DNA from: a virus | Strand: one strand, 5' to 3' | DNA length: 64,000 nucleotides | IMG/VR virus record: IMGVR_UViG_3300035101_000063 | In this document: positions 1-64,000 of the stretch, in pieces | Numbering within the stretch: the stretch's first letter is position 1 | How the letters are laid out: each line of letters opens with the position of its first letter | Notes under the pieces: generated by a model | What the model saw: only the letters and a program-made list of their open reading frames with translations | Told to the model about the DNA's origin: nothing | Databases searched by the model: none | Position numbers and translations under genes: made by a program

Positions 1-18
1 ATAATCAATACCTCCTAA

Positions 19-90
19 AGCCGATGAGAGGACTTGAACCTCCAACAAACTGATTACAGGTCAGTTACTCTACCATTAAGTTACATCGGC
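19..90 (-). tRNA. tRNA, anticodon UGU (Thr) most likely
   Basis: Reverse complement folds as a cloverleaf: acceptor GCCGATG/CATCGGC, T-arm GGAGG-TTCAAGT-CCTCT, anticodon stem ACTGA/TCAGT with loop CCTGTAA. Position 33 is C rather than U, so isotype is uncertain. Confidence 0.6.
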
Positions 91-103
91 TTAAACTAAA
101 TTT

Positions 104-178
104 TTGCGGAGAAGGGATTCGAACCCTTGACTGACCTGGCGTATGAAACCAGCGAGCTAAACCACTGCTCTACTCCGC
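104..178 (-). tRNA. tRNA with CAU anticodon (Met or lysidine-Ile)
   Basis: Reverse complement: acceptor TGCGGAG/CTCCGCA, anticodon stem CTGGT/GCCAG with loop TTCATAC (U33, CAU), T-arm AAGGG-TTCGAAT-CCCTT. Confidence 0.7.
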
Positions 179-180
179 AT

Positions 181-462
181 CTATAATCTAACTCCTGTCT
201 TTCTCTCTTTAAACCCTCTATCCCATTCTCTTGCATATCCCAAAACAGACAATTCATCATTAGTAGCAAAAGTATTCGCCCTTAATCCTCTATCATAAGC
301 AAGTTGCAACACATATTCTCTATGACGTTTTTCACATATATCGTCATGTTTAAAACTATTTACACAAACCCATCTTCCATTAATCCATTCATGGTATGTT
401 GTCTCCAAACAAGAATCACACCATAACTCTTTAATTGTTGACTCTTCCATATATGGATTCAT
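181..462 (-). CDS. hypothetical small Cys/His-rich protein
   Basis: 93-aa ORF directly downstream of promoter motif at 520-549; several Cys/His. Confidence 0.5.
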   Translation of the reverse strand: MNPYMEESTIKELWCDSCLETTYHEWINGRWVCVNSFKHDDICEKRHREYVLQLAYDRGLRANTFATNDELSVLGYAREWDRGFKERKTGVRL

Positions 463-519
463 ATCTAACTCTCCTTTTTGTTTCTCCTTTCCTAAGCATC
501 TTGCTCAGTATCTATCCTC

Positions 520-549
520 TATTCTAACCCTACAAAACCGTTTGTCAAC
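520..549 (-). promoter_or_regulatory. sigma70-like promoter (minus strand): GTTGACAAAC -35, TAGAAT -10
   Basis: Plus-strand tttgtcaac at 541-549 reads GTTGACAAA on minus; TAGAAT lies 16 bp downstream on minus (plus 521-526). Confidence 0.55.
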
Positions 550-554
550 AAAAA

Positions 555-791
555 TCAGCCATAAACATTAAAATAAACAAAACCTGAACTTTTTCTCGCT
601 ACACTATAATTATTTGTAACACATGTCTCTTTCAAAAGAAATTCAACATTGTCTAATTCAGATCTTAACTTCGCCAAACGGCCATGAATGTATTCAATAA
701 CATCCTTAGAAACATCCTCTTTTAATATGTCTAAAAAAGAACCTATCTCTCCTAAAATACTGATTTTCTTCTCTTTTAACTCTTTAACCAT
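555..791 (-). CDS. hypothetical protein
   Basis: 78-aa ORF downstream of the promoter/inverted repeat at 846-879. Confidence 0.45.
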   Translation of the reverse strand: MVKELKEKKISILGEIGSFLDILKEDVSKDVIEYIHGRLAKLRSELDNVEFLLKETCVTNNYSVARKSSGFVYFNVYG

Positions 792-845
792 GTCAATCTC
801 CCACCTGTTTAGAACATATATATTCTATATATCCTCTCCTTGTTC

Positions 846-879
846 TAGTGTAATATAGATTGACAAATTTTTGTCAACT
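846..879 (-). promoter_or_regulatory. promoter with palindromic -35 region TTGACAAATTTTTGTCAA
   Basis: 18-bp inverted repeat at 860-877 holds a TTGACA hexamer on each strand; AT-rich -10 candidates on the minus side (tattac/tatatt). Confidence 0.45.
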
Positions 880-891
880 GTTTTTTTACTT

Positions 892-907
892 GCGAACTCG
901 AGTTCGC
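892..907. repeat. palindrome GCGAACTCGAGTTCGC (copy 1 of 10)
   Basis: Perfect 16-bp palindrome with a central XhoI-like CTCGAG; sits 13 bp upstream (minus sense) of the -35 at 872-877. Confidence 0.9.
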
Positions 908-917
908 TAATTTATTC

Positions 918-945
918 GTTTGTTTGTTTGTTTGTTTGTTTGTTT
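918..945. repeat. (GTTT)7 microsatellite abutting the distal CRISPR repeat
   Basis: Seven tandem gttt units; the last unit is the first four bases of the CRISPR repeat at 942. Confidence 0.85.
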
Positions 946-1413
946 CAATCCACGCCCCCTTTAAGGGGACGACACAGGCTCGCCAGACCACCGTCCCAAA
1001 TTCCCCAGGTCCGTTTCAATCCACGCCCCCTTTAAGGGGGCGACACAGCCCCGTGTACACATCCGGCGACGCGGAGTTGGATATGGTTTCAATCCACGCC
1101 CCCATGAAGGGGGCGAAACAGGCTCTTGCTTTTCCTCCTTTTTTCCCACCTCGTTTGCGTTTCAATCCACGCCCCCATGAAGGGGGCGAAACAGCCGGAT
1201 AATGGAATCCTTCTGTCCATATGCCCGAATCCGTTTCAATCCACGCCACCATGAAGGGGGCGAAACAGGGCTGTTGGAGGCCCGACAAGTAAAAAACAAA
1301 CTATGTTTCAATCCACGCCCCCATGAAGGGGGCGAAACAGTTCTCTTTTTTTGCCTGGTTTATCATAATTTTCTCCTGTTTCAATCCACGCCCCCATGAA
1401 GGGGGCGAAACAG
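942..1413 (-). CRISPR. CRISPR array 1: 7 repeats x 36 bp, 6 spacers (35-38 bp), type I-C-like repeat
   Basis: Repeats at 942, 1013, 1086, 1159, 1233, 1305, 1378 read GTTTCAATCCACGCCCCCATGAAGGGGGCGAAACAG. The reverse complement ...GCCCCCTTCATGGGGGCGTGGATTGAAAC matches the canonical I-C repeat end GTGGATTGAAA(C/T), so transcription is on the minus strand. The two leftmost repeats are variants (CCCCCTTTAAGGGG-CGACACAG). Confidence 0.93.
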
Positions 1414-1622
1414 AGACCATATAAAATAATATGTAATTACAATAACTTCCATCATTATTTTCGAGCGCCTATCATTTTTATATCTTATTATATATATCAC
1501 TGTTTTAATCAATACTCATTCATAAAACAACACATTACGTAACATTATGATATCATATAATAAAAACTAATTATATATTTTTCGAGCGGTCACAACTTTT
1601 TTACCACCATATAACCGCTCGA
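1414..1622 (-). promoter_or_regulatory. AT-rich leader-like region between the two arrays
   Basis: ~200 bp, very AT-rich, next to the most conserved repeat of array 1. Contains duplicated ttttcgagcg motifs (1461-1470, 1580-1589) and an inverted repeat cgagcggt...accgctcg (1583-1621). Confidence 0.45.
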
Positions 1623-1876
1623 TTTTCAATCCACACCCCCTTAAAGGGAACGACACAGAGCTCGGCGAATGCACGACCAAGACTGCTTAATGATGTTTCA
1701 ATCCACGCCCCCTTAAAGGGTGCGACACAGACGACTAAAAATATCAAGCATTCCTTTCCCATCATTCGTTTCAATCCACACCCCCTTAAAGAGGGCGACA
1801 CAGACTTTCTTATTTTTACTTCCCCCCTCTATTTCTTCACGTTTCAATCCACGCCCCCTTAAAGGGGGCGACATAA
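1623..1876 (-). CRISPR. CRISPR array 2: 4 repeats, 3 spacers, repeat variant CCCCCTTAAAGGGGG-CGACACAG
   Basis: Repeats at 1623 (degenerate), 1695, 1768, 1841 (3' end degenerate, ...gacat). Spacers 1659-1694, 1731-1767, 1804-1840. Same orientation as array 1; lies immediately 3' of the cas7 stop. Confidence 0.9.
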
Positions 1877-1913
1877 TATATTAAATTGTCAAAGAACACT
1901 ATCTCACTATCTA

Positions 1914-2798
1914 TTACAGCCCATCAATCTTTTCAGTCATCTCCACATTACTTGGCAAATCATCTCTATTTGCCACTATATCATAATCATTAAATGAACG
2001 TATTGGTTCATTAGGACTAACAATCCTATTTATTTTTATCAAATCAAACAATTTATGAGAAGGTGCATTACCTAACTTACTATTATGTTTAAAAACATAT
2101 AATTTCCTAGCAACCATCTTTCCTCTACCTGCAGAATGGTCATGCTCAAACATATTAATCATTGCTTCCCATAACAACTCAAGATCTTCTTCTGAAAAAC
2201 CAGTTTTCTCAGCAAAATAAGCAGATATATATCCTTCACATCTATACAACCCATAAGGTACAATGAATTTTTTACCCATCGTACGTTCTTTTTCTAGGTC
2301 CTCTTCCTTAGTAACAGCCATTCTAGTAATAGTTAACTCACCAGGAAGAACAGGATCAATACTTTTTGAAAAATTCATCTGAACTGGACCACGTACTTGT
2401 CCTGCATTAACAGCATTAGTCATTACAGCACCAAAAGTCCTAATATCAAAAAAATTATTACACATCCAGTTAGTTATCATAACTGATTCTTTTTCATCTT
2501 TTGGAAGCTTATTTGTTTCTGGCTTCAAATCATACTCTTTATAAGCCAATTCATGCTGTCTATTTAAAACAGCCTTCTCTTTAACATAAATCTTAAATCC
2601 TACTTCTTCTTCTTTTGTAACTTCGATATAATTTCTTATTTTTCTCTTTATACAAACATCAGAAACTAATCCATGAGACGTTTCCGAATCAAGCCTTGGC
2701 ATACCTCCAGCATCTGGATCTCCATTTGGATTTCCATTTTCAACGTCAAACAAAAAAACAAACTCATAACGATTTTTTATAACAGCCATTTTCATCAT
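1914..2798 (-). CDS. cas7c: Cas7c (Csd2) backbone subunit of type I-C Cascade
   Basis: 294 aa; N-terminal NRYEFVFLFDVENGNPNGDPDAGGMPRLD...GLVSDVCIKRKIRNY is the Csd2/DevR-family hallmark. Confidence 0.9.
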   Translation of the reverse strand: MMKMAVIKNRYEFVFLFDVENGNPNGDPDAGGMPRLDSETSHGLVSDVCIKRKIRNYIEVTKEEEVGFKIYVKEKAVLNRQHELAYKEYDLKPETNKLPKDEKESVMITNWMCNNFFDIRTFGAVMTNAVNAGQVRGPVQMNFSKSIDPVLPGELTITRMAVTKEEDLEKERTMGKKFIVPYGLYRCEGYISAYFAEKTGFSEEDLELLWEAMINMFEHDHSAGRGKMVARKLYVFKHNSKLGNAPSHKLFDLIKINRIVSPNEPIRSFNDYDIVANRDDLPSNVEMTEKIDGL

Positions 2799-4582
2799 CC
2801 TTTCATCTCACCAACAACTTCGTTGTCAATTCTATCTTCTTCGTTTTCATTATCAACTTTTTTTACAAAAAAATCATTCCATTGATGATAATATCCTATA
2901 ACAAATAAACCTTGATCTTCCAAACTCAAATAAGTTGGAAACTTATCAATATCATTATCATAAATAATAGAACCTAATTCTTTAGAATAATAAACCCAAA
3001 GTCCATATTTTTTATTCTTCAACTTCCTCTGATGATGAGTACTCAAGTGAAGTATTTTAGGAAATGCAACAGATGGCTTAACAGATGCAGATGTAAAATA
3101 ATTATCTTTTATTGTTGTTTTTATTTTTCTTTCTTCACTCTTTTCCTGTATTTTTTCCAATACAGCAAATAATCTTCCTAAATTATACGGCAAATCTTTT
3201 CTTTCTCTGTCTAAAGACACACTAACCTCCTTATTGAAATTTCTATTTAAAATTGCTTTTATTAAAGCACAATTATAACGATTTATCCTTTCATGTTCCT
3301 GCCTTTTATTATCTTTATTCTTCTTAGGAATAACCTTTAATCTATCTATCAATAAACTCATCAATGAAACAGGATATGGTATCCCATTTAAAATAGACAT
3401 CATAAATGGACCAACTATATTTGACGTTATATTTTTTTCGTCATACTGAAAAACTATTTCTGAAAAAAGTTTTTTAATACTTGGCATAAAATATTGTTCA
3501 TTTCTCCCTACAATATCTAAAAAATCAAAATGTTGAATTAATTTATTCGAGATACCTTCTATAGTATCTATATGCCAAAATTTAACAGACAAACGAGATA
3601 AATTTGGAACCAATCCTAAAATAAAAAATCTTTCATTACCATTAATATAATCTGGCATTCTCCTTTTTTTAACTGTATCCAAAAATTCTTCAGCTTCATC
3701 AACAAAATCAAAATCTTTTGATGGATTTAATAAAGTACCAAAAATATCATCCATCTTCGATTTTTTCTCAGACCAAAATACTATGGTCATATCGCCCAAT
3801 TCAATTTTATGTTTAGACTCTGAAATATAATTAAACGCAGTACTATATGCAAAAGCTTCATACTTTCCAATAGGAGCATTCAATCCTTGATCTTTGCTAT
3901 TATTTCCATAAGAACAAAATGAATCCATATTAAACGAAACAAAAGGAGCACTTTGCCCTTTCACTCTTATATTAGGATGAAGTCTAGCAATAGCAGTATT
4001 ATCTCCACTTATAATACAACGACCAAAACAATCACAATTACTTAAATATTTATCAGACCAATATCGTTGCAATTCATTTGATTCATGTAAATATTTCTCA
4101 TTACCCAACAATTTAACAACAACATTATTACATTTATCATCTAATACAATATCAAGATCTAAAAAAACATCAGGTTCCCATTTATCTAAGAAACGTATAA
4201 AAGCTTCTAAATCATCATTATTAATCATCTTAAAATGTTCACGATGATATTCTCTGAAAGCTTCAAATCTAGCCTTGCTTTTTTCAGTTATTTTCCAATC
4301 AGTATCATCACAAGCAATACCAAACATATATTCTAAATTCTCCCAACAAAAACCAGGACTTTTATTGATTCCATTAGTACGCTTAACCAAAGGAACCCTA
4401 ATAGATATTGGCCTTGGCTTTTTTTTGCTCTTGTCTTGTATATCTTCAAATCTAATAAAATTACCATAACTATCAATAACTAATGAATACTTTATTTTCT
4501 GGTTACCAAATCCTATTACAGGAATATCAGCACCAGATTCTTTTAAATATTCATAATAATTTACCAACTCTTCAAGAATCAT
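2795..4582 (-). CDS. cas8c: Cas8c (Csd1) large subunit of type I-C Cascade
   Basis: 595 aa; N-terminus MILEELVNYYEYL...RVPLVKRTNGINKSPGFCWENLEYMFGI is Cas8c-like; 4-bp overlaps with cas5 and cas7 indicate an operon. Confidence 0.85.
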   Translation of the reverse strand: MILEELVNYYEYLKESGADIPVIGFGNQKIKYSLVIDSYGNFIRFEDIQDKSKKKPRPISIRVPLVKRTNGINKSPGFCWENLEYMFGIACDDTDWKITEKSKARFEAFREYHREHFKMINNDDLEAFIRFLDKWEPDVFLDLDIVLDDKCNNVVVKLLGNEKYLHESNELQRYWSDKYLSNCDCFGRCIISGDNTAIARLHPNIRVKGQSAPFVSFNMDSFCSYGNNSKDQGLNAPIGKYEAFAYSTAFNYISESKHKIELGDMTIVFWSEKKSKMDDIFGTLLNPSKDFDFVDEAEEFLDTVKKRRMPDYINGNERFFILGLVPNLSRLSVKFWHIDTIEGISNKLIQHFDFLDIVGRNEQYFMPSIKKLFSEIVFQYDEKNITSNIVGPFMMSILNGIPYPVSLMSLLIDRLKVIPKKNKDNKRQEHERINRYNCALIKAILNRNFNKEVSVSLDRERKDLPYNLGRLFAVLEKIQEKSEERKIKTTIKDNYFTSASVKPSVAFPKILHLSTHHQRKLKNKKYGLWVYYSKELGSIIYDNDIDKFPTYLSLEDQGLFVIGYYHQWNDFFVKKVDNENEEDRIDNEVVGEMKG

Positions 4583-5250
4583 CTTTTAACCTCATCACTA
4601 TTCGGATGTGGAACACTTATGCATCCATTTTCTATTTTTGCACGAAAAAACATAGGCAAAATATTACATTTATCTTTTTTCTTCTTTATATCAAAACACA
4701 TATCATATAACATCCAACCAAGATCGCGTGTTTCATTTATAGCAACTGGCATCTTATTAGAAATGGGCTCAAAAAAAGCCGAGAATTCTCTACAACCCAA
4801 ATATGGCTGATTAAAACATTGACCATTTTCAATCCTTCGATTAAAAATACCAAAATGCTTTCCTTTGTTTTTTCCATCGTTTTCAACAGCCTCAAAATGA
4901 GCATCAATAACATAGCTTACATCTCGTAAAACCATAGAATTACGTTGTGTTCTATCAGATTCTATAAACAAAGATAATGGCCTTGAAATATTATTCATAG
5001 TAGATGTGATATTTTTTTTATAAATTGGAGAAGACACTTCATTTCTCCGAATATTACAAAAACGAATTGGATTCAAAACATAAATCTTATCAATTATCCA
5101 TCGAATAGATTTCTTCCAATAAATAGCCTCCAAAATTCCACGTGCAGCTGATGGTGTAATCACATCATAACTAACACGCTCAGCTTTCATTTCCGGCCTT
5201 GTAAAACACGCCAATTCACCCCAAACATGAACTTTTACTCCATAATCCAT
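4579..5250 (-). CDS. cas5c: Cas5c (Cas5d) subunit and pre-crRNA endoribonuclease of type I-C
   Basis: 223 aa; VHVWGELACFTRPEMKAERVSYDVITPSAARGILEAIYWKK matches the Cas5d N-terminal signature. Confidence 0.9.
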   Translation of the reverse strand: MDYGVKVHVWGELACFTRPEMKAERVSYDVITPSAARGILEAIYWKKSIRWIIDKIYVLNPIRFCNIRRNEVSSPIYKKNITSTMNNISRPLSLFIESDRTQRNSMVLRDVSYVIDAHFEAVENDGKNKGKHFGIFNRRIENGQCFNQPYLGCREFSAFFEPISNKMPVAINETRDLGWMLYDMCFDIKKKKDKCNILPMFFRAKIENGCISVPHPNSDEVKR

Positions 5251-5317
5251 AGTTTTCCCTTATATTTTTCAATATCTTATATCACATATTCTGCCAGCAC
5301 CATACTGACAATCTATC

Positions 5318-5350
5318 AAGACATTAATCAATTAATCATGTTTTGTCAAC
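5318..5350 (-). promoter_or_regulatory. promoter of the cas5-cas8-cas7 operon (GTTGACAAAA -35, TAATGT-like -10)
   Basis: tttgtcaac at 5342-5350 (minus GTTGACAAA); tandem 8-bp direct repeat attaatca x2 at 5323-5338 between -35 and -10 (possible operator); ~60-nt leader to the cas5 ATG at 5250. Confidence 0.55.
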
Positions 5351-5356
5351 ATTTTT

Positions 5357-5668
5357 CTACATTATCATTCCACACATATAAACTCTATCAATACGATGTT
5401 CACTAGCATCAAAAAAGGGTCCTTTCTTCCCTGAATATTTTACTTCATCTTTCAACCATTTACCGTTAGTCTCCTTATCTGGATCTTCACAATATATGTC
5501 TTCAGAAACAAAATCCAAAATCTCTGATACCGCTTCAGAATCCGAATCTGTATTTATATACTTACCATTTGCTTTATCTAGGATATCAAGATCTTCATCA
5601 GATACATTCTGAATAAAATATGCTTTCATATCTTCAGGAACCATCTCAAAAACTAAAAAAACATTCAT
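5357..5668 (-). CDS. hypothetical acidic protein upstream of the cas operon
   Basis: 103-aa ORF, RBS ggagataaaag, own promoter. Confidence 0.5.
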   Translation of the reverse strand: MNVFLVFEMVPEDMKAYFIQNVSDEDLDILDKANGKYINTDSDSEAVSEILDFVSEDIYCEDPDKETNGKWLKDEVKYSGKKGPFFDASEHRIDRVYMCGMIM

Positions 5669-5711
5669 CTTTTATCTCCTCTTTGTATACAACTAACCAA
5701 TTAGTTATGCC

Positions 5712-5743
5712 TTATATAACCACGTAACAACCAGTTTGTCAAC
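5712..5743 (-). promoter_or_regulatory. promoter GTTGACAAAC -35 / TATATA -10
   Basis: tttgtcaac at 5735-5743; tatata at 5713-5718. Confidence 0.5.
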
Positions 5744-5754
5744 TATTTTCAATT

Positions 5755-6273
5755 TCAGGCAATCGTATTATTGTTTTTTATATCTTCAAAATCATTTTCA
5801 TTCAAAACTGAAAATCTCTCAACCAAACCTGTCTCTTTATTTATATTAGCACATATACAACCAAATCCAGTTGTATCATCTTTACCAAATACACCATTCA
5901 AAATACCCAATATGCCTACTCTATATCCACCCTCTGGTCTCTTTCCAATTTGTATATTTGGTATATCTGCTAAATCCTTATTACAAATAACACGCATATT
6001 AATAAGTTGATTTATTGCATATGAATCTATAGCTAAAACCTTATTCAATATATCAACCACATCATTTGGTGTAACAATATCCTTTAACATCCATAATCCT
6101 TTTTTGGACGAACTCGAGTTCGTTTCACCTATATCATCCTGGTCACTAATTACCATCTTTTTGTAAAGCTCAAAATCTCGTCTCAAAACCTCAGATGGCT
6201 CTCTTGGATTCAATATGGCTTCTGCAAAAATAAGCGAATCTTCAGGAGACAACTCAAGTACTTCTATCTTCAT
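5755..6273 (-). CDS. hypothetical protein carrying palindrome copy 2 in-frame
   Basis: 172-aa ORF. The palindrome at 6108-6123 encodes ...ETNSSSS...; possibly two genes fused by read-through (internal Met MLKDIVTP just downstream). Confidence 0.45.
   Translation of the reverse strand: MKIEVLELSPEDSLIFAEAILNPREPSEVLRRDFELYKKMVISDQDDIGETNSSSSKKGLWMLKDIVTPNDVVDILNKVLAIDSYAINQLINMRVICNKDLADIPNIQIGKRPEGGYRVGILGILNGVFGKDDTTGFGCICANINKETGLVERFSVLNENDFEDIKNNNTIA
6108..6123. repeat. palindrome ACGAACTCGAGTTCGT (copy 2)
   Basis: Exact palindrome; intragenic. Confidence 0.9.
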
Positions 6274-6310
6274 ATTTTCAACACTTTATCAACTTTGTAT
6301 GGTCCAATAT

Positions 6311-6559
6311 CTATTCATCACTCAAATATCTATCCGTATCTTCAACAACCTTTAAAATAGTCCTATCTCTATATAATATAATCTTTCTAATTAACCTCCA
6401 AATCAATTCAATTCCAATTACAGCAATCGAAAATAAAAACAATAATCCATCTATTGATTCATCAAAATTGAATTCAAAAAGTTCTGCCCCACTTATTATA
6501 AACAACAACGCAAAAAATCTTAAATCAATTTTCCCTATATCTTTTTTTCGTATTGACAT
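6311..6559 (-). CDS. small hydrophobic (membrane) protein
   Basis: 82 aa with two hydrophobic stretches. Confidence 0.4.
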   Translation of the reverse strand: MSIRKKDIGKIDLRFFALLFIISGAELFEFNFDESIDGLLFLFSIAVIGIELIWRLIRKIILYRDRTILKVVEDTDRYLSDE

Positions 6560-6570
6560 TTTTCACCATA

Positions 6571-6897
6571 TTAATTGCATCTTTTAACCATACTAATTGC
6601 ATCTTTCATCTTCTTCACTTTTTTTGTAAGCCACCCAGTACCAGCACACCATTCGCAATCAACTGGGTCATCACATCCACATGCCACCACTTCGGCTTTA
6701 CATGGTCCAACAACAAACTCAGAACCTGGTTTACAAAACATATCTATTCCAGATTCGTTATAAAGTCCCCAATTTATTTGAACCAATTGCATCGCTCTTC
6801 CGAAACCAATAGTCTTCAAAGAAGACACTAATACTTTTTCAGAAGTTGTTTTTGGACCCAAAATATCATTAGCCTTATCATAATCATCAATCAACAT
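6571..6897 (-). CDS. hypothetical protein with a DnaJ-type CxxCxGxG zinc-finger motif
   Basis: 108 aa; CEWCAGTGW plus further Cys pairs. Confidence 0.45.
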   Translation of the reverse strand: MLIDDYDKANDILGPKTTSEKVLVSSLKTIGFGRAMQLVQINWGLYNESGIDMFCKPGSEFVVGPCKAEVVACGCDDPVDCEWCAGTGWLTKKVKKMKDAISMVKRCN

Positions 6898-6909
6898 ATC
6901 ACGTGCCTT

Positions 6910-7431
6910 TCATCTATATTTTTCATAACATTCATCACATAATTGGTTTATTGAACCGACCCTTATTCCTTCAATAAAATTTTTAATTCCATCAGGTTTA
7001 CCTATTAATCTTGCTCTATGTTTCTTTGTAATCATCCTTTCGACATGTTTCCCACAACATGGACATTTCCATTCCATCAAAATAACCTTATTAACATCAT
7101 CAAAAAAAGTAGATATCTCAACCAGAGATTCACTATTCCATCCAAACGCTAAATCAACAGGAAAAACTGGTATACTAACTCCATCATCCAACTTTTTTTT
7201 AAAATTAAAAAAAATATTCTTTTTGTTAGGCTTTTTAAAATGGACACTTGAAACATCCTGCTTCATTCTATCCTTTGCCTTTTTTTGTACTGAATCTAAA
7301 TATTCTTTTATTTTTTCCTCTATCTCAACTATCCTAAGTCTAGCATTCTCTCTTTCAAACAAAGACGATCCTTCATTCTCAACGATCTTTCTCAACTTCC
7401 TAATTAACTTATACTTTGCTACTACATCCAT
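6910..7431 (-). CDS. zinc-ribbon protein
   Basis: 173 aa; CPCCGKH ... CDECYEKY Cys pairs. Confidence 0.5.
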   Translation of the reverse strand: MDVVAKYKLIRKLRKIVENEGSSLFERENARLRIVEIEEKIKEYLDSVQKKAKDRMKQDVSSVHFKKPNKKNIFFNFKKKLDDGVSIPVFPVDLAFGWNSESLVEISTFFDDVNKVILMEWKCPCCGKHVERMITKKHRARLIGKPDGIKNFIEGIRVGSINQLCDECYEKYR

Positions 7432-7434
7432 ATA

Positions 7435-8433
7435 TTACTCACAAGCACATAATCTAGGGTCTACTGACCTACGATTTGACATGATTGCCCCACCATTACA
7501 AACAACCACAAGTATCTGATGAAAAACCATATCACTAGAATCATTGTGATATGTACACCCAGCTGCTCCAACATTCCATGTACGGTCTCCTATTCCACAA
7601 GAATCAATCGAAGCATACCAATATCCAGTTTCACCTTCTAACCCCAATCCTTGGACTATAGATATACAATTCTTATGATTATCCTTAATCACATTTTCAG
7701 TATCATCAGAATATTCAAGGCCAAAACTATGACATACACTTATACAATCTGACCTCTCCTCTGGAAGATCTGACCTATAATACCAACATATCCCAGAATC
7801 ATCAGGGAATTCATATCCATTATCCAAACATACTGATTCTTCTGTTTCAGTATCCATTAAACCATAAAAATCCGTATCAAAATCAGTATCCGTATCAGTA
7901 TCTGAGTCTGCATCCGTGTCCGCATCTGAGTCTGAATCTGAGTCTGCGTCCGTGTCCGTGTCCGCATCTGAGTCTGTATCAGCATCACTATCCACATACC
8001 CATTCATATTACAACATTTCAAACCTCTAGGACATGTACCACTAACAGGAATTCCACCTAAAGAAGAACAACTACTTAGACATTCACTTTCACATTCAAT
8101 ATTGATATCTGTATCAGTATCTATATACATATCAGAATCGCTATCTGTATTAGAATCGCTATCTGTATCAGTATCTGTATCAGAATCTGCATCAGTATCT
8201 GCATCTGTATCAGTATCGGTGTCCGCATCAGCGTCTGTATCGGCATCTGTATCACTATCAGAATCGGCATCTGCATCAACATACTCATTTCCAGTATCAA
8301 AAACATTACTGTTACTGTAAATATAAGCAGAATCTATCCAAATATATCCAGCATCGACGTCCAAAAATGCATCTGGTTCAGCAGCACACCCCAAAGATAT
8401 AAAATATACAAAAACCCATAAAATCTTTTCCAT
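7435..8433 (-). CDS. secreted Cys-rich protein with two long Asp-rich (D-A/S/T) dipeptide repeat tracts
   Basis: 332 aa; N-terminal signal-like MEKILWVFVYFISLGCAA; DADADSDSDTDADTD... tracts flank a Cys-rich core (CESECLSSCSSLGG...CPRGLKCC). Confidence 0.6.
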   Translation of the reverse strand: MEKILWVFVYFISLGCAAEPDAFLDVDAGYIWIDSAYIYSNSNVFDTGNEYVDADADSDSDTDADTDADADTDTDTDADTDADSDTDTDTDSDSNTDSDSDMYIDTDTDINIECESECLSSCSSLGGIPVSGTCPRGLKCCNMNGYVDSDADTDSDADTDTDADSDSDSDADTDADSDTDTDTDFDTDFYGLMDTETEESVCLDNGYEFPDDSGICWYYRSDLPEERSDCISVCHSFGLEYSDDTENVIKDNHKNCISIVQGLGLEGETGYWYASIDSCGIGDRTWNVGAAGCTYHNDSSDMVFHQILVVVCNGGAIMSNRRSVDPRLCACE

Positions 8434-10053: not shown

Positions 10054-10566
10054 TTATATCTTGGTTCCTTCGAGGTTGGCCCCTTCGAAGCCAGCCCATT
10101 TGAACTTGACCTCTTTAAGGTTGGCACTTTCAAGATTGGCCCCTTTAAGGTTGGCACTTTCAAGATTGGCACTTTCAAGATTGGCATCTTTGAGATTGAC
10201 CCCTTCAAGGTAAGCCCATTTGAGGTTGGCATCTTTGAGATTGGCCCCTTCAAGATTGGCATCTTTAAGGTAGGCCCATTCTAGATTGGCATCTTCGAGG
10301 TCAACCCCTTTTAGGTCAACCCCTTCGAGGCCAACCCCTTTTAGGTTGACCCCTTTAAGGTTGGCACTTTCAAGATTGGCACTTTCAAGATTGGCACTTT
10401 CAAGATTGGCACTTTCAAGATTGGCCCCTTTGAGATTGGCCCCTTTGAGGTTAGCTTCTTCGAGGTCAACCCCTTCGAGGTCAGCCCCTTTTAGGTTGGC
10501 TCCTTCGAAGTTGACCCCTTTGAGGATGGCTCCCCGCAAATTTCTTCCACTTAAATCAATTTTCAT
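10054..10566 (-). CDS. pentapeptide-repeat protein, paralog 1
   Basis: 170 aa; MKIDLSGRNLRGA... then continuous A(N/D)L(K/E)G pentapeptide repeats. Confidence 0.8.
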   Translation of the reverse strand: MKIDLSGRNLRGAILKGVNFEGANLKGADLEGVDLEEANLKGANLKGANLESANLESANLESANLESANLKGVNLKGVGLEGVDLKGVDLEDANLEWAYLKDANLEGANLKDANLKWAYLEGVNLKDANLESANLESANLKGANLESANLKEVKFKWAGFEGANLEGTKI

Positions 10567-11194
10567 TTTTTATCCCTTCGAGGTTGGCCCCTTCTAGATC
10601 GACCTCTTCTAGATCGACATCTTTAAGATTGGCTCCTTTAAGATTGGCTCCTTTGAGGTAGGCCCCTTTAATTTTGGCCCCTTCGAGGTTGGCTCCTTCT
10701 AGATTGGCTCCTTCTAGATTGACTCCTTCAAGGTTGGCACATTTAAGGATGGCCCCTTCTAGATTGGCCCTTTTTAGGTCTGCCATTTCTAAATTGGCCC
10801 TTTTGAGGTCTGCCATTTCAAGGTCTGCCCCTTCAAGGTTGGCCCCTGTAAAGTCTGACCCTTTAAAATTGGCATATCTTAGGTTGGCATCTTCGATGTT
10901 GGCCATTTTGAGGTTGACCCTTTCGAGATTGGCACCTCTTAGGTCTGCCCCTTTGAGGTCAGTACCTTCAAGGTTAGCACCTTCAAGATTGGCCCCTGTA
11001 AAGTCTGCCTTTTCAAGGTCTGCCCCTTCAAGATTGGCACATCTTAGGTATGTCCATTCGAGTTTGGCCCCTTTTAGGTTGGCTCCTTCGAGGTTAGCTT
11101 CTTCAAGGTTGGTCCTTTCTAGCTTAGCACCTCGCAAATCAATTCCTTCGAAGTTGGCTCCCCGCAAATTTCTTCCACTTAAATCAATTTTCAT
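10556..11194 (-). CDS. pentapeptide-repeat protein, paralog 2
   Basis: 212 aa; same N-terminus MKIDLSGRNLRGA; C-terminus ...EGIKNEN; 11-nt overlap with paralog 1. Confidence 0.8.
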   Translation of the reverse strand: MKIDLSGRNLRGANFEGIDLRGAKLERTNLEEANLEGANLKGAKLEWTYLRCANLEGADLEKADFTGANLEGANLEGTDLKGADLRGANLERVNLKMANIEDANLRYANFKGSDFTGANLEGADLEMADLKRANLEMADLKRANLEGAILKCANLEGVNLEGANLEGANLEGAKIKGAYLKGANLKGANLKDVDLEEVDLEGANLEGIKNEN

Positions 11195-11747
11195 TTTTTA
11201 TCCCTTCGAGGTTGGACCCTTTGAGATAGGCCCCTTCTAAATTTATCCCTCTCAAATCTGTCTTTTCCAGCTTGGCCCCTTCTAGGTAAGCCCCTTTAAA
11301 GTTGACTCCTTCCAAGTAAGCCCTTTTAAAATTGGCCCCTTTGAGGTTGGCTCCTTTGAAATTGGCCAAGTAGAGGTTGGCACATTCAAAATTGGCCCCT
11401 TCAAGGTTAGCATCTTTAAGGTCTGCCCCTTCAAAGTTGACCAATTTTAGGTTGGCTTCTTTGAGTTTGGCACCTTCTAGGTTGGCCCATTTAAGGATGG
11501 CCCCCTCAAGATTGGCCCCTTTTAGGTTGGCTTCTTTGAACTTAACCCCTTCGAGGTCAGCCCCTTCGAGGAAAGCCCCTTTTAGATTGGCCCCTTCAAG
11601 GTTGGCTTTTTTTAGATTGGCTCCTTTTAGGTAGGCATCTTTGAGGTTGGCCCCTTCAAGGTCAGCCCCTTTTAGGTAGGCACCTTCGAGGTCAGCCCCT
11701 TCCAAAATGGCTCCTCGCAAATTTCTTCCACTTAAATCAATTTTCAT
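11184..11747 (-). CDS. pentapeptide-repeat protein, paralog 3
   Basis: 187 aa; MKIDLSGRNLRGA ... EGIKNEN. Confidence 0.8.
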   Translation of the reverse strand: MKIDLSGRNLRGAILEGADLEGAYLKGADLEGANLKDAYLKGANLKKANLEGANLKGAFLEGADLEGVKFKEANLKGANLEGAILKWANLEGAKLKEANLKLVNFEGADLKDANLEGANFECANLYLANFKGANLKGANFKRAYLEGVNFKGAYLEGAKLEKTDLRGINLEGAYLKGSNLEGIKNEN

Positions 11748-12275
11748 TTATCTCTTAGCTCCTTCTAAGTTAGCTCCTTCTAAGTTGGCTCCTTTGAAAT
11801 TGGCTCCTTCTAGATTGGCCCCTTCGAGGTTAGCCCATTTAAAATTGGCTCCTTCGAGATTGGACCCTTCAATATTGGCCCATTTTAGGTCTGCCCTTTC
11901 GAGGATGGCCCCTTCGAGATTAGCCCCTTTGAGGATGGCCCCTTCGAGGATGGCCTCTTTGAGGTTAGCCCCTTTGAGATTTACCTCTTTGAGGTTAGCC
12001 CCTTCGAGGTTGGCCCTTTCGAGATTGGCCCCTTCGAGGTTAGTTCCTTCGAGGTTTGCCCTTTCAAGGTTGGCTCCTTTTAGGTTTGCCCTTTCAAGGT
12101 CTGCACCTTTGAGGTTAGCACATCTTAAACCTGTCCATTCAAGGTTGGACCCTTCGAGGTTAGTTCCTTCGAAGTTAGCTTCTTCAAGGTTGGTCCTTTC
12201 GAGGTCTGCCCCTCGCAAATCAATCCCTTTCAAAATAGCTCCTCGCAAATTTCTTTCACTTAAATCGATTTTCAT
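11748..12275 (-). CDS. pentapeptide-repeat protein, paralog 4
   Basis: 175 aa; MKIDLSERNLRGA...; its TAA stop overlaps the next ATG (taaATG). Confidence 0.8.
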   Translation of the reverse strand: MKIDLSERNLRGAILKGIDLRGADLERTNLEEANFEGTNLEGSNLEWTGLRCANLKGADLERANLKGANLERANLEGTNLEGANLERANLEGANLKEVNLKGANLKEAILEGAILKGANLEGAILERADLKWANIEGSNLEGANFKWANLEGANLEGANFKGANLEGANLEGAKR

Positions 12276-12708
12276 TTTTTATCCCTTCGAAGTTGGCCTC
12301 TTTGAGATAGGCCCCTTCCAAATTGGCCCCTTCCAAATTTACCCCTCGCAAGTTGACCTTGCTCAAATCAGTTCCTCTCATGTCAACCCTTTCCAAATTG
12401 GCACTTAGTAAGTCAGTCCCTTCCAAATTGGCCCCTCGCAAGTTAACCTTACTCAAGTTGGCCTCTCGTAAATCGGCCCCTTCCAAATCGGCCCCTCGCA
12501 AGTTTGCGTTACTTAAATTAGCCTTGCTCAAGTTGACCCCTCGCAAATTGGTCCATTCTAAGTTGGCCCCTTCCAGATTGACATTATTCAGATTAGCCTA
12601 TTCTAAGTTGGCCCATCGCAAGTTAATCCCTTCCAAATTGGCCTTGCTCAGATTAGCCTTTCGTAAATTGGCTTCTCGCAAAATTTTACCACTTAAATCG
12701 GTTTTCAT
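12256..12708 (-). pseudogene. pentapeptide-repeat paralog 5/6 interrupted by an in-frame TAG
   Basis: ATG at 12706-12708 gives MKTDLSGKILREANLRKANLSKANLEGINLRWANLE, then TAG (plus 12598-12600). The frame continues ANLNNVNLEGANLEWTNLRGVNLSKANLS... to the family C-terminus ...EGIKNENRFK at 12256. Confidence 0.6.
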
Positions 12709-62123: not shown

Positions 62124-64000
62124 CTAATTCAGGACAAGACTTTCTTGAATTGTCACTTTTAAATCAAAACCAGTAGACCTAATTGTACCAGTAGTACTAA
62201 ATGGCTTATATCTAGGGTCATCTATATCTTCTGATTTTCTGCATCTAATTATTATCGCAATATCTGATGAATACACAAATTCTTCGGTTGCAACACCTAA
62301 TACATTGGTATCTTTATTCATTAACTGCTGACCATTATCCTGTCTAAAAATAGCAGTTTGTACACCACTTATTGGGTCTTGATTCTTATCAACAACCGTT
62401 ATTGTCAAATCAACTACTGTCTGGTCAATAGAATATAAATTAGCTTCTTGTACGGCAATACTAGTAGTAGTTTCTGTGATAAACAGAAACATATCCGTTA
62501 CGTCATTCGTAGCAGTAAATCTATATTTCAATTTTATTCCGCTTGAAATGCCGCTTATTCCGGTCCAATTGCCTACTGTTCTTGCATTCAACCAACTTCC
62601 ACTCCAACCGCTTCCTGTGTCGTATTGAAATTCTACTGTAACGTCCGTCCATTCATCTGTTCCCCAAGAAATAGCTCCTGAACCTAACATGGATGTTATA
62701 TTACCGGTAAACGAAATATGGCCTTTTGAAAAATAACTTTGTTCTACTTCTATCACATCTCCATTGGACATATTCAAAGAACCATCACCATTGAATTCGG
62801 GATTACCACTAACTATAGTTATATAATTATTATCATCAGAAGGTGGTATTAATGCACAAACAATAAATCCCGATGTATCAGATTTAAATCCATCGTGAAT
62901 TTGTACACCAATATCGCCAGGATAAGATGCGTTTATGCCGCCTGGCGCTCCAATGCTTCCAGAACCAGCATGTAAACCTTTTACAACCGTATCCACCCCA
63001 GCAATATCGAATGTTTGGTCATAATCGTAACTACAATTACCAATCAAAGTTCCTATTGCTGTTGTTGGAAGAGGGGCTGAAAAATTATAATTAGAATTTT
63101 CAGCCCATATCCTAGATATATCTATGTCAACACAACTTCCTACAAGAGTAAATAATTCCCGACTTTTATTATTCATATCATCAGGAGAGTCTATTCTTCC
63201 TAAACACCTAAATTTTATTCTATTACAATCGGTGAAATAAAATACTCTATAACCTGCTGGTCCCAATGTTTTCCAACCACACAAATATACGTCTTTAGCG
63301 TTTTCCATTGCGATTGCGTTAGTTGTTAAAGTGGGATTTTGGTAATCTTGGGAAGACGCAGCAATAATATTTGTTACCGTGGCATCATTCGTATCTCTAA
63401 GAACTAAAACCTTAGCATTAGAATGTATATCTGCAGATATTCCAACGCAATTATCTATAGTAAAATTTTCACACCTTCCAGCGTAATAACAAAATAAATA
63501 CGTATTCGCTCCATAAGCATTTCCGCCCAATACGGAAATACAATTCTTTATTAATATATTAGATGAAGTATTTGCTCCAAGGTACATCCAATAAGCATAT
63601 GCTTGTACAGCTAAACAATCTATTATATCAGCACCATTACCGCAATCAACAACGCCTATTGCGGAATTTGAATTTGACGCCAATGCAAACGGATCATTTA
63701 TTACAACACAATTATTATATATGGATTTTTGTAAACACGCAGCAGAACCTAAAGATACAGATGCCCCAACATAATCAGCATAGTAATAATAAGCACCAGA
63801 AGTACCAAAAAAAGAACTGCCAATATTACAAATACTCAATTCAACCTTTCCAGCTCCTGACATAATTATTTCATATCTGTTATTTTCGAAATTACTCCCA
63901 TCTTGATAAGTATTTCCACTTGTATAATTTGCAATATCTGATGTAGAAAAATGTACGTTTGGTACCTTTACATCACATCCACTGGGAGGAACAAATCCAC
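62124..64000 (-). CDS. beta-helix (pectin-lyase-fold) tailspike/depolymerase-like protein, N-terminus beyond window end
   Basis: Repetitive NCxxI/NIxxAS beta-helix-rung segments. The frame stays open upstream of the annotated Met (63863) to position 64000, so the gene likely starts outside the window. Confidence 0.55.
   Translation of the reverse strand, partial: GFVPPSGCDVKVPNVHFSTSDIANYTSGNTYQDGSNFENNRYEIIMSGAGKVELSICNIGSSFFGTSGAYYYYADYVGASVSLGSAACLQKSIYNNCVVINDPFALASNSNSAIGVVDCGNGADIIDCLAVQAYAYWMYLGANTSSNILIKNCISVLGGNAYGANTYLFCYYAGRCENFTIDNCVGISADIHSNAKVLVLRDTNDATVTNIIAASSQDYQNPTLTTNAIAMENAKDVYLCGWKTLGPAGYRVFYFTDCNRIKFRCLGRIDSPDDMNNKSRELFTLVGSCVDIDISRIWAENSNYNFSAPLPTTAIGTLIGNCSYDYDQTFDIAGVDTVVKGLHAGSGSIGAPGGINASYPGDIGVQIHDGFKSDTSGFIVCALIPPSDDNNYITIVSGNPEFNGDGSLNMSNGDVIEVEQSYFSKGHISFTGNITSMLGSGAISWGTDEWTDVTVEFQYDTGSGWSGSWLNARTVGNWTGISGISSGIKLKYRFTATNDVTDMFLFITETTTSIAVQEANLYSIDQTVVDLTITVVDKNQDPISGVQTAIFRQDNGQQLMNKDTNVLGVATEEFVYSSDIAIIIRCRKSEDIDDPRYKPFSTTGTIRSTGFDLKVTIQESLVLN

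What the first reader, a model, noticed from the sequence alone, without database searches (positions are those of the whole stretch)
942..1876. Two adjacent arrays with distinct repeat sub-variants and opposite decay gradients
Array 1 (942-1413) uses ...CCCCCATGAAGGGGGCGAAACAG. Array 2 (1623-1876) uses ...CCCCCTTAAAGGGGGCGACACAG. The two leader-distal repeats of array 1 carry the array-2-type loop and tail (TTTAAGGGG-CGACACAG), so array 1 may have started as a copy of array 2 and then fixed a new repeat variant in its newer units. The arrays are separated by a ~200-bp AT-rich leader-like segment with its own inverted repeat. Array 2 begins only ~37 bp after the cas7 stop. The GAAACAG/GACACAG difference changes the crRNA end that Cas5d/Cas7 recognise, which raises the question of whether both arrays are processed equally by the single Cas5c.
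Basis: seen in the sequence. Interest (0 to 1): 0.6.

Follow-up and report, generated by a model that had tools for sequence, protein, structure and literature searches.

The report
Phage CRISPR arrays aimed at rival phage
A T4-like phage carries a stripped-down type I-C CRISPR system (Cas5, Cas8 and Cas7 only) with one fast-changing array whose spacers match a co-occurring related phage and one frozen, decaying array; this kind of phage-borne CRISPR is already known, but this is a well-documented example.

Summary
The two arrays are real, at the stated coordinates, and recur in six independent assemblies. crRNA sense is the minus strand, the same as cas5c-cas8c-cas7c. The repeat is 36 nt (CTGT plus a canonical 32-nt I-C repeat ending GTGGATTGAAAC).

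The variants differ only in the hairpin loop and 2 nt 5' of the stem. The stem base and the 11-nt 5' handle are unchanged, and all three consensus forms fold equally well. Both arrays decay toward their promoter-distal (low-coordinate) end, so the gradients run in parallel, not opposite.

Comparison across contigs settles the roles of the two arrays:
- **Array 2** sits 37 nt after cas7 and has no leader. It is nearly frozen and accumulates repeat mutations.
- **Array 1** sits behind a 209-nt leader and is hypervariable. Contigs with identical cas genes differ by leader-proximal spacers.
- **Targets:** about ten array-1 spacers match one co-occurring viral contig, with TTN (I-C-like) flanks.
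- **Repeat types A and B** occur in opposite order in a sister lineage, joined by a hybrid repeat. This indicates recombination, not one-way replacement.

No cas3, cas1, cas2 or cas4 is in the 64 kb. This is a new member of a known kind: a phage-borne minimal CRISPR used in inter-phage conflict.

The parts
4579..5250 (-). cas5c, the type I-C pre-crRNA endonuclease and Cascade subunit
   Evidence: TIGR01876 at 1.2e-57 and PF09704. Matches D. vulgaris I-C Cas5c structures 8dex and 7kha over its full length at 1e-66. dN/dS is 0.16 against L190.
2795..4582 (-). cas8c (Csd1), the large Cascade subunit
   Evidence: TIGR01863 at 3.2e-120 and PF09709 at 2.7e-142, both full length. The identical protein is found on other contigs. 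The nearest other relatives are 44-48% identical and sit in complete bacterial cas3-5-8-7-4-1-2 loci.
1914..2798 (-). cas7c (Csd2), the Cascade backbone subunit
   Evidence: TIGR02589 at 7.6e-114 and PF05107 at 1.1e-109. dN/dS is 0.06 against L190 and L191.
1877..1913 (-). 37-nt gap between the cas7 stop codon and array 2; array 2 has no separate leader
   Evidence: Read from the sequence. The consensus scan reports no promoter-like site here.
1623..1876 (-). Array 2: four degenerate C-type repeats and three spacers. It is leaderless, frozen and decaying.
   Evidence: The spacers and the same repeat mutations are identical in L076-L079. L190 and L191 show only minor changes. Hairpin stability falls to -11, -9.4 and -6.3 kcal/mol, against -15.9 for the intact form. 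No target was found for any of its spacers.
1414..1622 (-). Leader of array 1 (209 nt, 25% GC), with inverted repeat TCGAGCGGT/ACCGCTCGA (1582-1590/1614-1622) and a third half-site at 1461-1472
   Evidence: The first 188 nt are identical in four lineages. The last 21 nt carry 8 differences that co-vary with the type of the first repeat. A promoter-like TCGAAA-17-TATTAT lies at 1585-1557 on the minus strand (consensus match only).
1086..1413 (-). Array 1, leader-proximal block: five A-type repeats (CTGTTTCGCCCCCTTCATGGGGGCGTGGATTGAAAC) and the newer spacers
   Evidence: The leader-proximal spacers differ between contigs whose cas genes are 100% identical.
942..1048 (-). Array 1, distal block: two B-type repeats (CTGTGTCGCCCCCTTAAAGGGGGCG...) flanking the oldest spacer (978-1012)
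   Evidence: The same spacer, with 1 mismatch, plus a B repeat forms the first unit of array 2 in L190 and L191.
1341..1377 (-). Newest spacer of array 1, unique to this window
   Evidence: Absent from L076 and L078, which carry other spacers or none at this position. Only a weak database match, E = 0.1, to a human-faecal phage record.
1269..1304 (-). Array-1 spacer with an imperfect match to the rival phage contig L217
   Evidence: 25 of 25 nt match, apart from a 2-nt length difference in the T run. The rest of the spacer matches the loop of the L217 hairpin only in inverted form. The site is the terminator-like hairpin at L217 about 921-966.
918..945 (.). (GTTT)7 microsatellite that continues the terminal repeat's GTTT/AAAC end; trailer of array 1
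   Evidence: A related AAAC/AAAT-rich trailer occurs in L076 and L190.

Best explanation
This is a type I-C effector module without cas3 or an adaptation module (cas5c-cas8c-cas7c), carried by a T4-like phage. Two CRISPR arrays follow it on the same (minus) strand.

Array 2 abuts cas7 and has no leader. It is probably transcribed by read-through from the cas operon. It no longer gains spacers, and its repeats are decaying.

Array 1 sits behind a 209-nt leader and is the live array. It gains spacers at the leader end. Its spacers are directed at a related phage, without this CRISPR locus in the part recovered, that lives in the same samples. The system therefore serves inter-phage competition.

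The repeat variants A, B and C are near-neutral polymorphisms in the loop and the 5' flank of the hairpin. They leave the Cas5c recognition elements intact. Their block-wise distribution has two causes: each new unit copies the first repeat, and repeat-mediated recombination moves blocks between arrays and between co-infecting genomes.

Shown: gene identities, strand, repeat structure, spacer turnover, targets and recombination scars.

Inferred: Cas5c processes both array types, and array 2 is co-transcribed with the cas genes.

Not resolved:
- Which enzyme inserts the new spacers.
- How the target is inactivated without a linked Cas3. My estimates are: Cascade binding that blocks transcription or replication, about 0.4; recruitment of a host I-C Cas3, about 0.35; a nuclease encoded elsewhere in the phage, about 0.25.
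For: **Gene identities and absences**
- cas5c, cas8c and cas7c match their families over full length.
- They are under purifying selection, with dN/dS of 0.06-0.29.
- A Pfam scan of the other 73 ORFs of at least 70 aa returned only 21 families at E <= 0.001, none of them Cas. The 25 PADLOC families displayed, of 38 matched, also showed no Cas1, Cas2, Cas3 or Cas4.
- The same scan shows T4-type sheath, tube and baseplate genes.

**Strand**
- The repeats end in GTGGATTGAAAC on the minus strand, as in about 115 bacterial I-C arrays.
- Rfam CRISPR-DR9 hits are on the minus strand only.
- Eight of 11 stem substitutions stay paired as G.U in minus sense, against 0 of 11 in plus sense.

**Array turnover**
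- L076 has cas genes 100% identical to the window but two different leader-proximal spacers. L078 has only the two distal spacers.
- L077 and L079 contigs break at the first repeat of array 1.
- 31 distinct array-1 spacers occur across five contigs. Array 2 has only its three spacers in every contig where it is seen, plus the shared cassette spacer in L190 and L191.

**Targets**
- Nine array-1 spacers from L076, L190 and L191, plus window spacer 1269-1304, match a roughly 6-kb stretch of IMGVR_UViG_3300035136_000034 (L217). That contig comes from the same sample as L076.
- Matches include 36/38, 37/39, 35/38, 34/37 and 33/36.
- The 5' flanks are TTC x2, TTT x3 and TTG. TTN occurs in 6 of 9 flanks against a 9% background (P = 3e-5).
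- L217 shares only a few genes with the window, at 73-78% amino-acid identity.

**Repeat variants**
- A, B and C fold to the same hairpin.
- Cas5d reads the stem base and the 3' overhang (PMC5965381).

**Recombination**
- L190 has B-type repeats proximal and A-type distal. A hybrid repeat (G at position 5 plus the TTCAT loop) sits exactly at the junction.
- L190 and L191 share one spacer in different neighbourhoods.
- The [oldest spacer + B repeat] cassette lies in array 2 in L190 and L191, but in array 1 here.

**Precedent**
- Phage CRISPR systems that lack Cas1, Cas2, Cas4 and interference genes, with spacers against other phages, are described in PMC7162821.
Against: - No expression or processing data exist.
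- Only 64 kb, plus about 7 kb to the left and 6 kb to the right, could be inspected. The longest contig carrying this Cas8c is reported as 158 kb. cas1, cas2, cas4 or cas3 could therefore lie elsewhere in the genome.
- All L217 matches carry 2-8 mismatches, so L217 is a variant of the true targets. Only one of the window's own six array-1 spacers has a recognisable match, and it is imperfect.
- The spacer differences could in principle come from differential loss in a larger ancestral array rather than from gain.
- Metagenome assemblies can mis-join strain variants across repeats.
- The phage unit (36-nt repeat, about 37-nt spacer, period 72-74) differs from every bacterial array with the same core repeat (32-nt repeat, about 34-nt spacer, period 65-68). 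This does not fit easily with a canonical host I-C integrase doing the insertion.
- The G.U bias could reflect C-to-T mutation pressure rather than selection on the RNA.
Confidence: 0.7

Rival explanations
1. Array 1 arose as a copy of array 2 and then fixed a new repeat variant. The two variants differ at the crRNA end read by Cas5c and Cas7, so the single Cas5c may process the arrays unequally for that reason.
For: - The distal array-1 repeats are B-type, one loop base away from the array-2 consensus.
- A spacer-plus-B-repeat cassette is shared between array 2 of L190 and L191 and the distal end of array 1 here.
Against: - The variable bases lie in the loop and 2 nt 5' of the stem, not in the 5' handle or the stem base.
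- In L190 the B type is leader-proximal and the A type is distal, and L191 has eight B-type repeats next to the leader. Both types are therefore propagated in the active array.
- Unequal processing is more plausibly caused by stem-weakening point mutations in array 2.
Confidence: 0.15
2. The arrays are inert cargo. They are a remnant of a bacterial I-C locus picked up by the phage, with no current function. Differences between contigs reflect only random deletion and recombination.
For: - There is no cas3 and no adaptation genes in 64 kb.
- Array 2 is visibly decaying.
- The nearest Cas8c relatives sit in complete bacterial loci.
Against: - The cas genes are under purifying selection.
- There are 31 distinct array-1 spacers among phages that are 98-100% identical in their cas genes.
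- Many spacers match a co-occurring phage with I-C-like TTN flanks.
- Variation is concentrated at the leader end.
Confidence: 0.07
3. The arrays act mainly as decoys against a host type I-C system. Their repeat transcripts would soak up host Cas5 and Cas7, as Racr RNAs do, rather than guide the phage's own Cascade.
For: - The repeats share the stem and 5' handle with widespread bacterial I-C repeats.
- Solitary I-C-like repeats occur elsewhere in the same phage genome.
- RacrIC1 is a documented precedent (PMC10651486).
Against: - The phage keeps a complete, selected cas5-cas8-cas7 set.
- The spacers turn over and match a rival phage. A decoy does not need either property.
Confidence: 0.06
4. 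Assembly artefact: a single array was split or collapsed by the assembler.
For: Repeat-rich regions are prone to mis-assembly, and two related contigs end inside array 1.
Against: - The same cas7 / 37 nt / array 2 / 209-nt leader / array 1 layout appears in six independent JGI and Logan assemblies.
- The 209-nt unique leader cannot be produced by collapsing a single array.
Confidence: 0.02

Closest known systems
Canonical bacterial type I-C (Dvulg) CRISPR-Cas, e.g. Desulfovibrio vulgaris and Bacillus halodurans
   Same: - Cas5c, Cas8c and Cas7c match over full length. Cas5c matches the D. vulgaris structures at 1e-66.
- The repeat core is GTCGC-stem-loop-stem-GTGGATTGAAAC, with a 7-bp GC stem.
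- Protospacer flanks are TTC- or TTT-like.
- The array lies on the same strand as the cas genes.
   Different: - No cas3 and no cas4-cas1-cas2 in the 64 kb.
- The repeat is 36 nt, with four extra bases (CTGT) at its 5' end. Spacers are about 37 nt, giving a period of 72-74 against 65-68.
- There are two short arrays, one without a leader.
- The system is carried by a T4-like phage.
CRISPR systems of huge phages, including the 'type I-C variant' (Al-Shayeb et al. 2020, PMC7162821)
   Same: - Phage-encoded.
- Lacks Cas1, Cas2 and Cas4 and has no recognisable interference nuclease.
- The arrays are compact.
- The spacers target other phages.
- That paper proposes the same mechanistic options: use of host Cas proteins, or repression without cleavage.
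   Different: - No helicase takes the place of Cas3 in the locus here. The only helicase is an SNF2 gene 7.5 kb away, which belongs to a general phage helicase family (phrog_62).
- Cas5c is a close relative of canonical, catalytically characterised Cas5c. Whether the catalytic residues are kept was not checked residue by residue.
- This case adds evidence from several samples for leader-end turnover and for recombination between arrays.
Virus-borne mini-CRISPR arrays in interviral conflicts (Medvedeva et al. 2019, PMC6858448)
   Same: Short arrays on a viral genome, with spacers that match related co-circulating viruses. The inferred role is exclusion of competitors.
   Different: Those mini-arrays have no cas genes and rely entirely on host Cas proteins. 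This phage brings its own Cascade subunits.
Vibrio phage ICP1 type I-F system (known from the literature; not examined here)
   Same: A lytic phage uses its own type I CRISPR-Cas against a competing mobile element and gains new spacers.
   Different: ICP1 encodes the full set, including Cas1 and Cas2-3. Here the adaptation and nuclease genes are missing from the locus.

Membership tests
Type I-C CRISPR-Cas | Cas5c (Cas5d) endonuclease present and no Cas6 | tested here: met
   TIGR01876 at 1.2e-57 and 1e-66 to 8dex and 7kha. No Cas6 family is among the 21 Pfam families found in the other 73 ORFs.
Type I-C CRISPR-Cas | Cas8c (Csd1) and Cas7c (Csd2) present | tested here: met
   TIGR01863 at 3.2e-120 and TIGR02589 at 7.6e-114.
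Type I-C CRISPR-Cas | Cas3 helicase-nuclease, the signature of type I | tested here: not met
   No Cas3_HD, DEAD or Cas3-like_C family appears in any of 76 minus-strand ORFs of at least 70 aa in the 64 kb, nor in the called genes of L076 to the left. The rest of the phage genome could not be read.
Type I-C CRISPR-Cas | Adaptation module cas4-cas1-cas2 next to the array | tested here: not met
   Absent from the window and from L076. The nearest bacterial relatives, L179-L182, have it; the L183 contig ends after cas4.
Type I-C CRISPR-Cas | Repeat with a GC hairpin and an ...ATTGAAAC 3' end that gives the 11-nt 5' handle | tested here: met
   The repeat is 4 nt longer at its 5' end than in all bacterial arrays examined. 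The CTGT is not derived from the target, since 0 of 9 protospacer 3' flanks read CTGT.
Type I-C CRISPR-Cas | 5'-TTC PAM | tested here: inconclusive
   Flanks are TTC x2, TTT x3, TTG, CCT, CTA and GTC on imperfect protospacers in L217. The TTN enrichment has P = 3e-5.
Phage-borne CRISPR used in inter-phage conflict (Al-Shayeb 2020; Medvedeva 2019) | The array lies on a viral genome | tested here: met
   Tail sheath, gp19 tube, gp25 and baseplate genes plus tRNA genes are in the window. Pieces of the same phage are present in IMG/VR (L215, L203).
Phage-borne CRISPR used in inter-phage conflict (Al-Shayeb 2020; Medvedeva 2019) | The spacers match other, related viruses | tested here: met
   About ten array-1 spacers match the viral contig L217, which shares a few genes and the 16-nt hairpin motif with this phage.
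Phage-borne CRISPR used in inter-phage conflict (Al-Shayeb 2020; Medvedeva 2019) | The rival virus is actually excluded | not testable with these tools
   This needs co-infection experiments.
Solitary repeat units / RNA anti-CRISPR (Racr) | A single repeat without spacers or cas genes | tested here: not met
   The finding consists of arrays of 7 and 4 repeats next to cas genes. Separate solitary repeats do exist elsewhere in the same phage.

The most novel reading that the evidence does not exclude
A phage keeps a live CRISPR array with no adaptation genes and no Cas3 in its own genome. New 36-nt-repeat, roughly 37-nt-spacer units would then be inserted in trans by a host integrase, or by an unlinked one, whose product geometry differs from every bacterial I-C array with the same core repeat. 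The Cas3-less Cascade would disable a rival phage by binding alone. If so, this family would be a natural system for studying adaptation in trans and nuclease-free type I interference between viruses.
Probability: 0.3. Interest if true: 0.65.

Novelty: new member of a known kind. Interest (0 to 1): 0.42.

Why it matters
Phage-encoded CRISPR systems that lack both the spacer integrase and the nuclease are known from metagenomes. How they stay up to date, and how they act on their targets, is still open.

This locus offers unusually clean natural evidence on those questions:
- Contigs with identical cas genes differ only by leader-end spacers.
- The target phage is present in the same sample.
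- A frozen sister array a few hundred bases away serves as an internal control.
- Recombination scars show how repeat variants and spacer blocks move.

These features make the system a practical candidate for experiments on adaptation in trans and on Cas3-independent interference. As a class, however, the phenomenon is not new.

Tried and rejected
1. **Close relatives in the INPHARED phage collection.** Megablast of window 1-8000 found nothing. tblastn with Cas8c found only hits at 29-31% identity.
2. **Relatives in IMG/VR.** A Cas8c peptide-pattern search and a search for the 36-nt repeat both found none.
3. **Exact host repeat match.**
   - A scan of GTDB genomes for TCGCCCCCTTNNNGGGGGCGTGGATTGAAAC returned 99 loci, all with TTCGC, TTCAC or TTCGT loops and 32-nt repeats. 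None had the phage's A, B or C form as its array repeat. A single TTCAT-loop copy occurs in one Spirochaetales array.
   - A metagenome scan for the 36-nt form found only the phage family. The other hits were bacterial arrays where a spacer happened to end in CTGT.
   - The host remains unknown.
4. **Self-targeting.** No spacer matches the window or the related loci with 9 or fewer mismatches.
5. **Spacer targets in other collections.**
   - The phage collection gave one weak hit at E = 0.1.
   - Plasmids gave none.
   - Exact 24-mers of three spacers found nothing in IMG/VR.
6. **Bacterial spacers against this phage.** None was convincing among the fetched bacterial arrays.
7. **Walking beyond the window to look for cas1 and cas3.** The only contig carrying the right-end protein starts at that gene. 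IMG/VR returns the same stored stretch for L217.
8. **Leader conservation.** I first thought the leader was more conserved than the cas genes. I retracted this once the cas genes proved 98.3-99.3% identical. Zero differences in 188 nt is then not significant.
9. **The SNF2 helicase at 12722-14929 as a Cas3 substitute.** It belongs to a general phage helicase family and lies 7.5 kb away, behind more than ten unrelated genes. I do not count it as part of the system.
10. **ORFs overlapping the arrays** (for example 924-1202 on the + strand). These are artefacts of repeat sequence.
Full report
**What is in the sequence**

Window 942-1876 holds eleven copies of a 36-nt repeat. Seven lie at 942-1413 and four at 1623-1876, spaced 71-74 nt apart. 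A 209-nt stretch with 25% GC separates the two groups. Immediately to the right, on the minus strand, lie three genes:

| Gene | Coordinates | Family match |
|---|---|---|
| cas7c | 1914-2798 | TIGR02589, 7.6e-114 |
| cas8c | 2795-4582 | TIGR01863, 3.2e-120 |
| cas5c | 4579-5250 | TIGR01876, 1.2e-57 |

Cas5c also matches the D. vulgaris type I-C Cascade structures at 1e-66. The rest of the window is a T4-like myovirus. It has a tail sheath, gp19 tube, gp25 and baseplate proteins, two tRNA genes, every gene on the minus strand and about 33% GC.

**Strand and repeat anatomy**

The repeats end in GTGGATTGAAAC when read on the minus strand. About 115 bacterial I-C arrays retrieved here end the same way. 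Three further results agree with a minus-strand RNA:
- The arrays lie on the same strand as the cas genes.
- Rfam CRISPR-DR9 hits, though below threshold, occur on the minus strand only.
- Eight of 11 substitutions in the hairpin stem remain paired as G.U in minus sense, against none of 11 in plus sense.

In crRNA sense there are three variants:

| Variant | Sequence | Copies and position |
|---|---|---|
| A | CTGTTTCGCCCCCTTCATGGGGGCGTGGATTGAAAC | five, 1413 to 1086 |
| B | CTGTGTCGCCCCCTTAAAGGGGGCG... | two, 1048 to 942 |
| C | CTGTGTCGCCCCCTTTAAGGGGGCG... | four, each mutated, 1876 to 1623 |

The variants differ only at position 5, which lies 2 nt before the stem, and in the loop. The 7-bp stem and the 11-nt tail are the same in all three. 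That tail becomes the 5' handle. All three fold to the same hairpin, at -15.9 to -16.3 kcal/mol.

Cas5d is reported to read the stem base and the 3' overhang (review PMC5965381). The A, B and C differences therefore fall outside the known recognition elements.

**Repeat length**

The repeat is 36 nt: a canonical 32-nt I-C repeat preceded by CTGT. The CTGT is duplicated with every new unit, and it is never found at the 3' flank of a protospacer (0 of 9). Spacers average 36.7 nt. Every bacterial array with the same core has a 32-nt repeat and a period of 65-68.

**Decay**

In the direction of transcription, both arrays carry their most divergent repeat at the far, low-coordinate end. The gradients therefore run in parallel. 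Array 2 is damaged throughout. Its hairpins drop to -11, -9.4 and -6.3 kcal/mol, and the first repeat has lost the CTGT.

**Comparison with other samples**

The identical Cas8c occurs on four other contigs with DNA available (L076-L079). The metagenome scan for the 36-nt repeat found two sister phages, L190 and L191, whose cas genes are 98.3-99.3% identical to the window's.

All six assemblies show the same layout: cas7, then 37 nt, then array 2. The 209-nt leader follows array 2 in all six, and array 1 follows it wherever the contig reaches that far. That rules out an assembly artefact.

Array 2 is identical in L076-L079, down to each repeat mutation. In L190 and L191 it differs by one extra unit at the cas7-proximal end, a 4-nt deletion in one spacer, and changes in two of its repeats.

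Array 1 behaves quite differently:
- L076 has cas genes 100% identical to the window's. It nevertheless carries two other spacers where the window has one, and the next five spacers are shared.
- L078 has only the two oldest spacers.
- L077 and L079 break at the first repeat of array 1.
- L190 and L191 share no array-1 spacer with the window, and only one with each other.

In total there are 31 distinct array-1 spacers. Array 2 has only its three spacers in every contig where it is seen, plus the shared cassette spacer in L190 and L191. Array 1 is therefore the live array and array 2 a fossil. The cas genes are under purifying selection, with dN/dS of 0.06-0.29.

**Targets**

One L076 spacer contains a 16-nt palindrome, GCGAACTCGAGTTCGC, which occurs ten times in the window as a terminator-like hairpin. 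Scanning IMG/VR for that palindrome retrieved IMGVR_UViG_3300035136_000034 (L217), a 38-kb viral contig from the same sample as L076.

Nine array-1 spacers from three lineages match a roughly 6-kb stretch of L217. The matches are 36/38, 37/39, 35/38, 34/37, 33/36, 33/37, 32/37, 30/36 and 30/37. Window spacer 1269-1304 matches an L217 hairpin imperfectly.

The 5' flanks are TTC twice, TTT three times and TTG once. TTN occurs in 6 of 9 flanks against a 9% background (P = 3e-5). This fits the I-C TTC PAM and the minus-strand orientation.

L217 shares only a few genes with the window, at 73-78% amino-acid identity, in the region roughly syntenic to the one beside the cas genes. The 12 kb recovered shows no cas genes. 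The targeted genes encode HTH_36, Bro-N and Lcl_C domain proteins.

Seven of the nine protospacers lie on the antisense strand of L217 genes. This bias is not significant. No array-2 spacer has a match anywhere.

**Recombination**

In L190 the order of repeat types is the reverse of the window. Eight B-type repeats sit next to the leader and seven A-type repeats sit distally. A single hybrid repeat (G at position 5 with the TTCAT loop) lies exactly at the junction. This is the product expected from a crossover inside a repeat. The segment shared between the two variable sites is only 10 nt, too short for a k-mer switch to create the hybrid during assembly.

Two more observations point the same way:
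- The last 21 nt of the leader carry 8 differences that go with the type of the first repeat, while the other 188 nt are identical.
- The oldest window spacer plus a B repeat forms the first unit of array 2 in L190 and L191.

Repeat variants and spacer blocks therefore move between arrays and between genomes. Neither A nor B is 'the new one'.

**What is missing, and the mechanism**

A Pfam scan of the other 73 minus-strand ORFs of at least 70 aa returned only 21 families at E <= 0.001, none of them Cas. The PADLOC scan shows 25 of 38 matched families, and those also include no Cas1, Cas2, Cas3 or Cas4. L076 adds about 7 kb to the left without any cas gene. The nearest Cas8c relatives (44-48% identity) sit in complete bacterial cas3-5-8-7-4-1-2 loci. 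The phage therefore kept only the middle of such a locus.

Al-Shayeb et al. 2020 (PMC7162821) describe the same pattern in huge phages. They propose use of host Cas proteins, or repression without cleavage.

I cannot decide between Cascade binding alone, a recruited host Cas3, and an unlinked phage nuclease. I also cannot say which enzyme inserts the spacers. The unusual 36-nt repeat and 37-nt spacer geometry, together with the lack of any bacterial array carrying this repeat in the two large scans, argues mildly against a canonical host I-C integrase.

**Verdict**

This is a new member of a known kind: phage-borne minimal CRISPR-Cas used against rival phages. Its value lies in the natural contrast between a live and a frozen array. 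The rival phage is also identified in the same sample. Recombination is clearly recorded in the repeats.

Noticed in passing
L076 13021-13054 and 15181-15214; L190 9141-9176; L203 1353-1386. All lie outside the window: about 1.6 and 3.7 kb left of position 1, and about 4.7 kb right of position 64000.: Solitary type I-C-like repeats occur in the same phage, away from the arrays. An example is ATTTCGCTCCCTTAAAAGGAGTGTGGATTGAAAT. Three of the four sit just upstream of tRNA genes: 4 nt before tRNA-Gln, 84 nt before tRNA-Ala and 59 nt before tRNA-Lys. An unrelated IMG/VR phage (L025, 4654-4689) has a CTGT-prefixed I-C repeat 15 nt upstream of tRNA-Leu. These could be Racr-type RNA anti-CRISPRs, or Cas5c processing sites in tRNA-cluster transcripts.
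   Followed up: partly
window 892-907, 6108, 9833, 20737, 23822, 39284, 45407, 48663, 55286, 57399: A 16-nt palindrome, GCGAACTCGAGTTCGC, or a variant differing by up to 2 nt (typically A/T at the outer positions), recurs ten times in 64 kb, largely near gene ends. It looks like a family-specific terminator-like hairpin. The rival phage contig L217 has it too, and it was the clue that led to the targets.
   Followed up: partly
window 918-945: A perfect (GTTT)7 microsatellite continues directly from the GTTT start (AAAC end in crRNA sense) of the terminal array-1 repeat. The sister phages have a degenerate AAAC/AAAT run at the same place.
   Followed up: no
window about 10054-12546: The Pfam scan reports five proteins with pentapeptide-repeat families (best E = 1.3e-78). 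They are probably the tandem ORFs in this GC-richer stretch (46% against 31-34% in the flanking windows), which also matches itself at 65-75% identity; which ORFs carry the hits was not listed. Pentapeptide-repeat proteins can mimic DNA, so this may be an anti-defence cluster.
   Followed up: no
window 12722-14929 (minus strand): An SNF2-family helicase (PF00176 at 1e-32; phrog_62 at 5e-89) lies 7.5 kb from the cas genes. It resembles the helicases of the Zorya, Dpd and DISARM defence systems in PADLOC. I did not treat it as a stand-in for Cas3.
   Followed up: partly
window, ORF not identified: One ORF in the window matches the PADLOC model PDLC01138, 'unknown small protein, sometimes fused to CARF', at 7e-19. 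Another matches C3a69 at 1.9e-14. The batch scan does not say which ORFs these are.
   Followed up: no
window 7435-8433 (minus strand) and L217 6148-8097: A serine/aspartate-repeat-like protein, which matches the SD-repeat regions of MSCRAMM adhesins, is shared with the rival phage. In L217 the homologue carries an Lcl_C domain and contains a repetitive stretch hit by one spacer at several positions.
   Followed up: no
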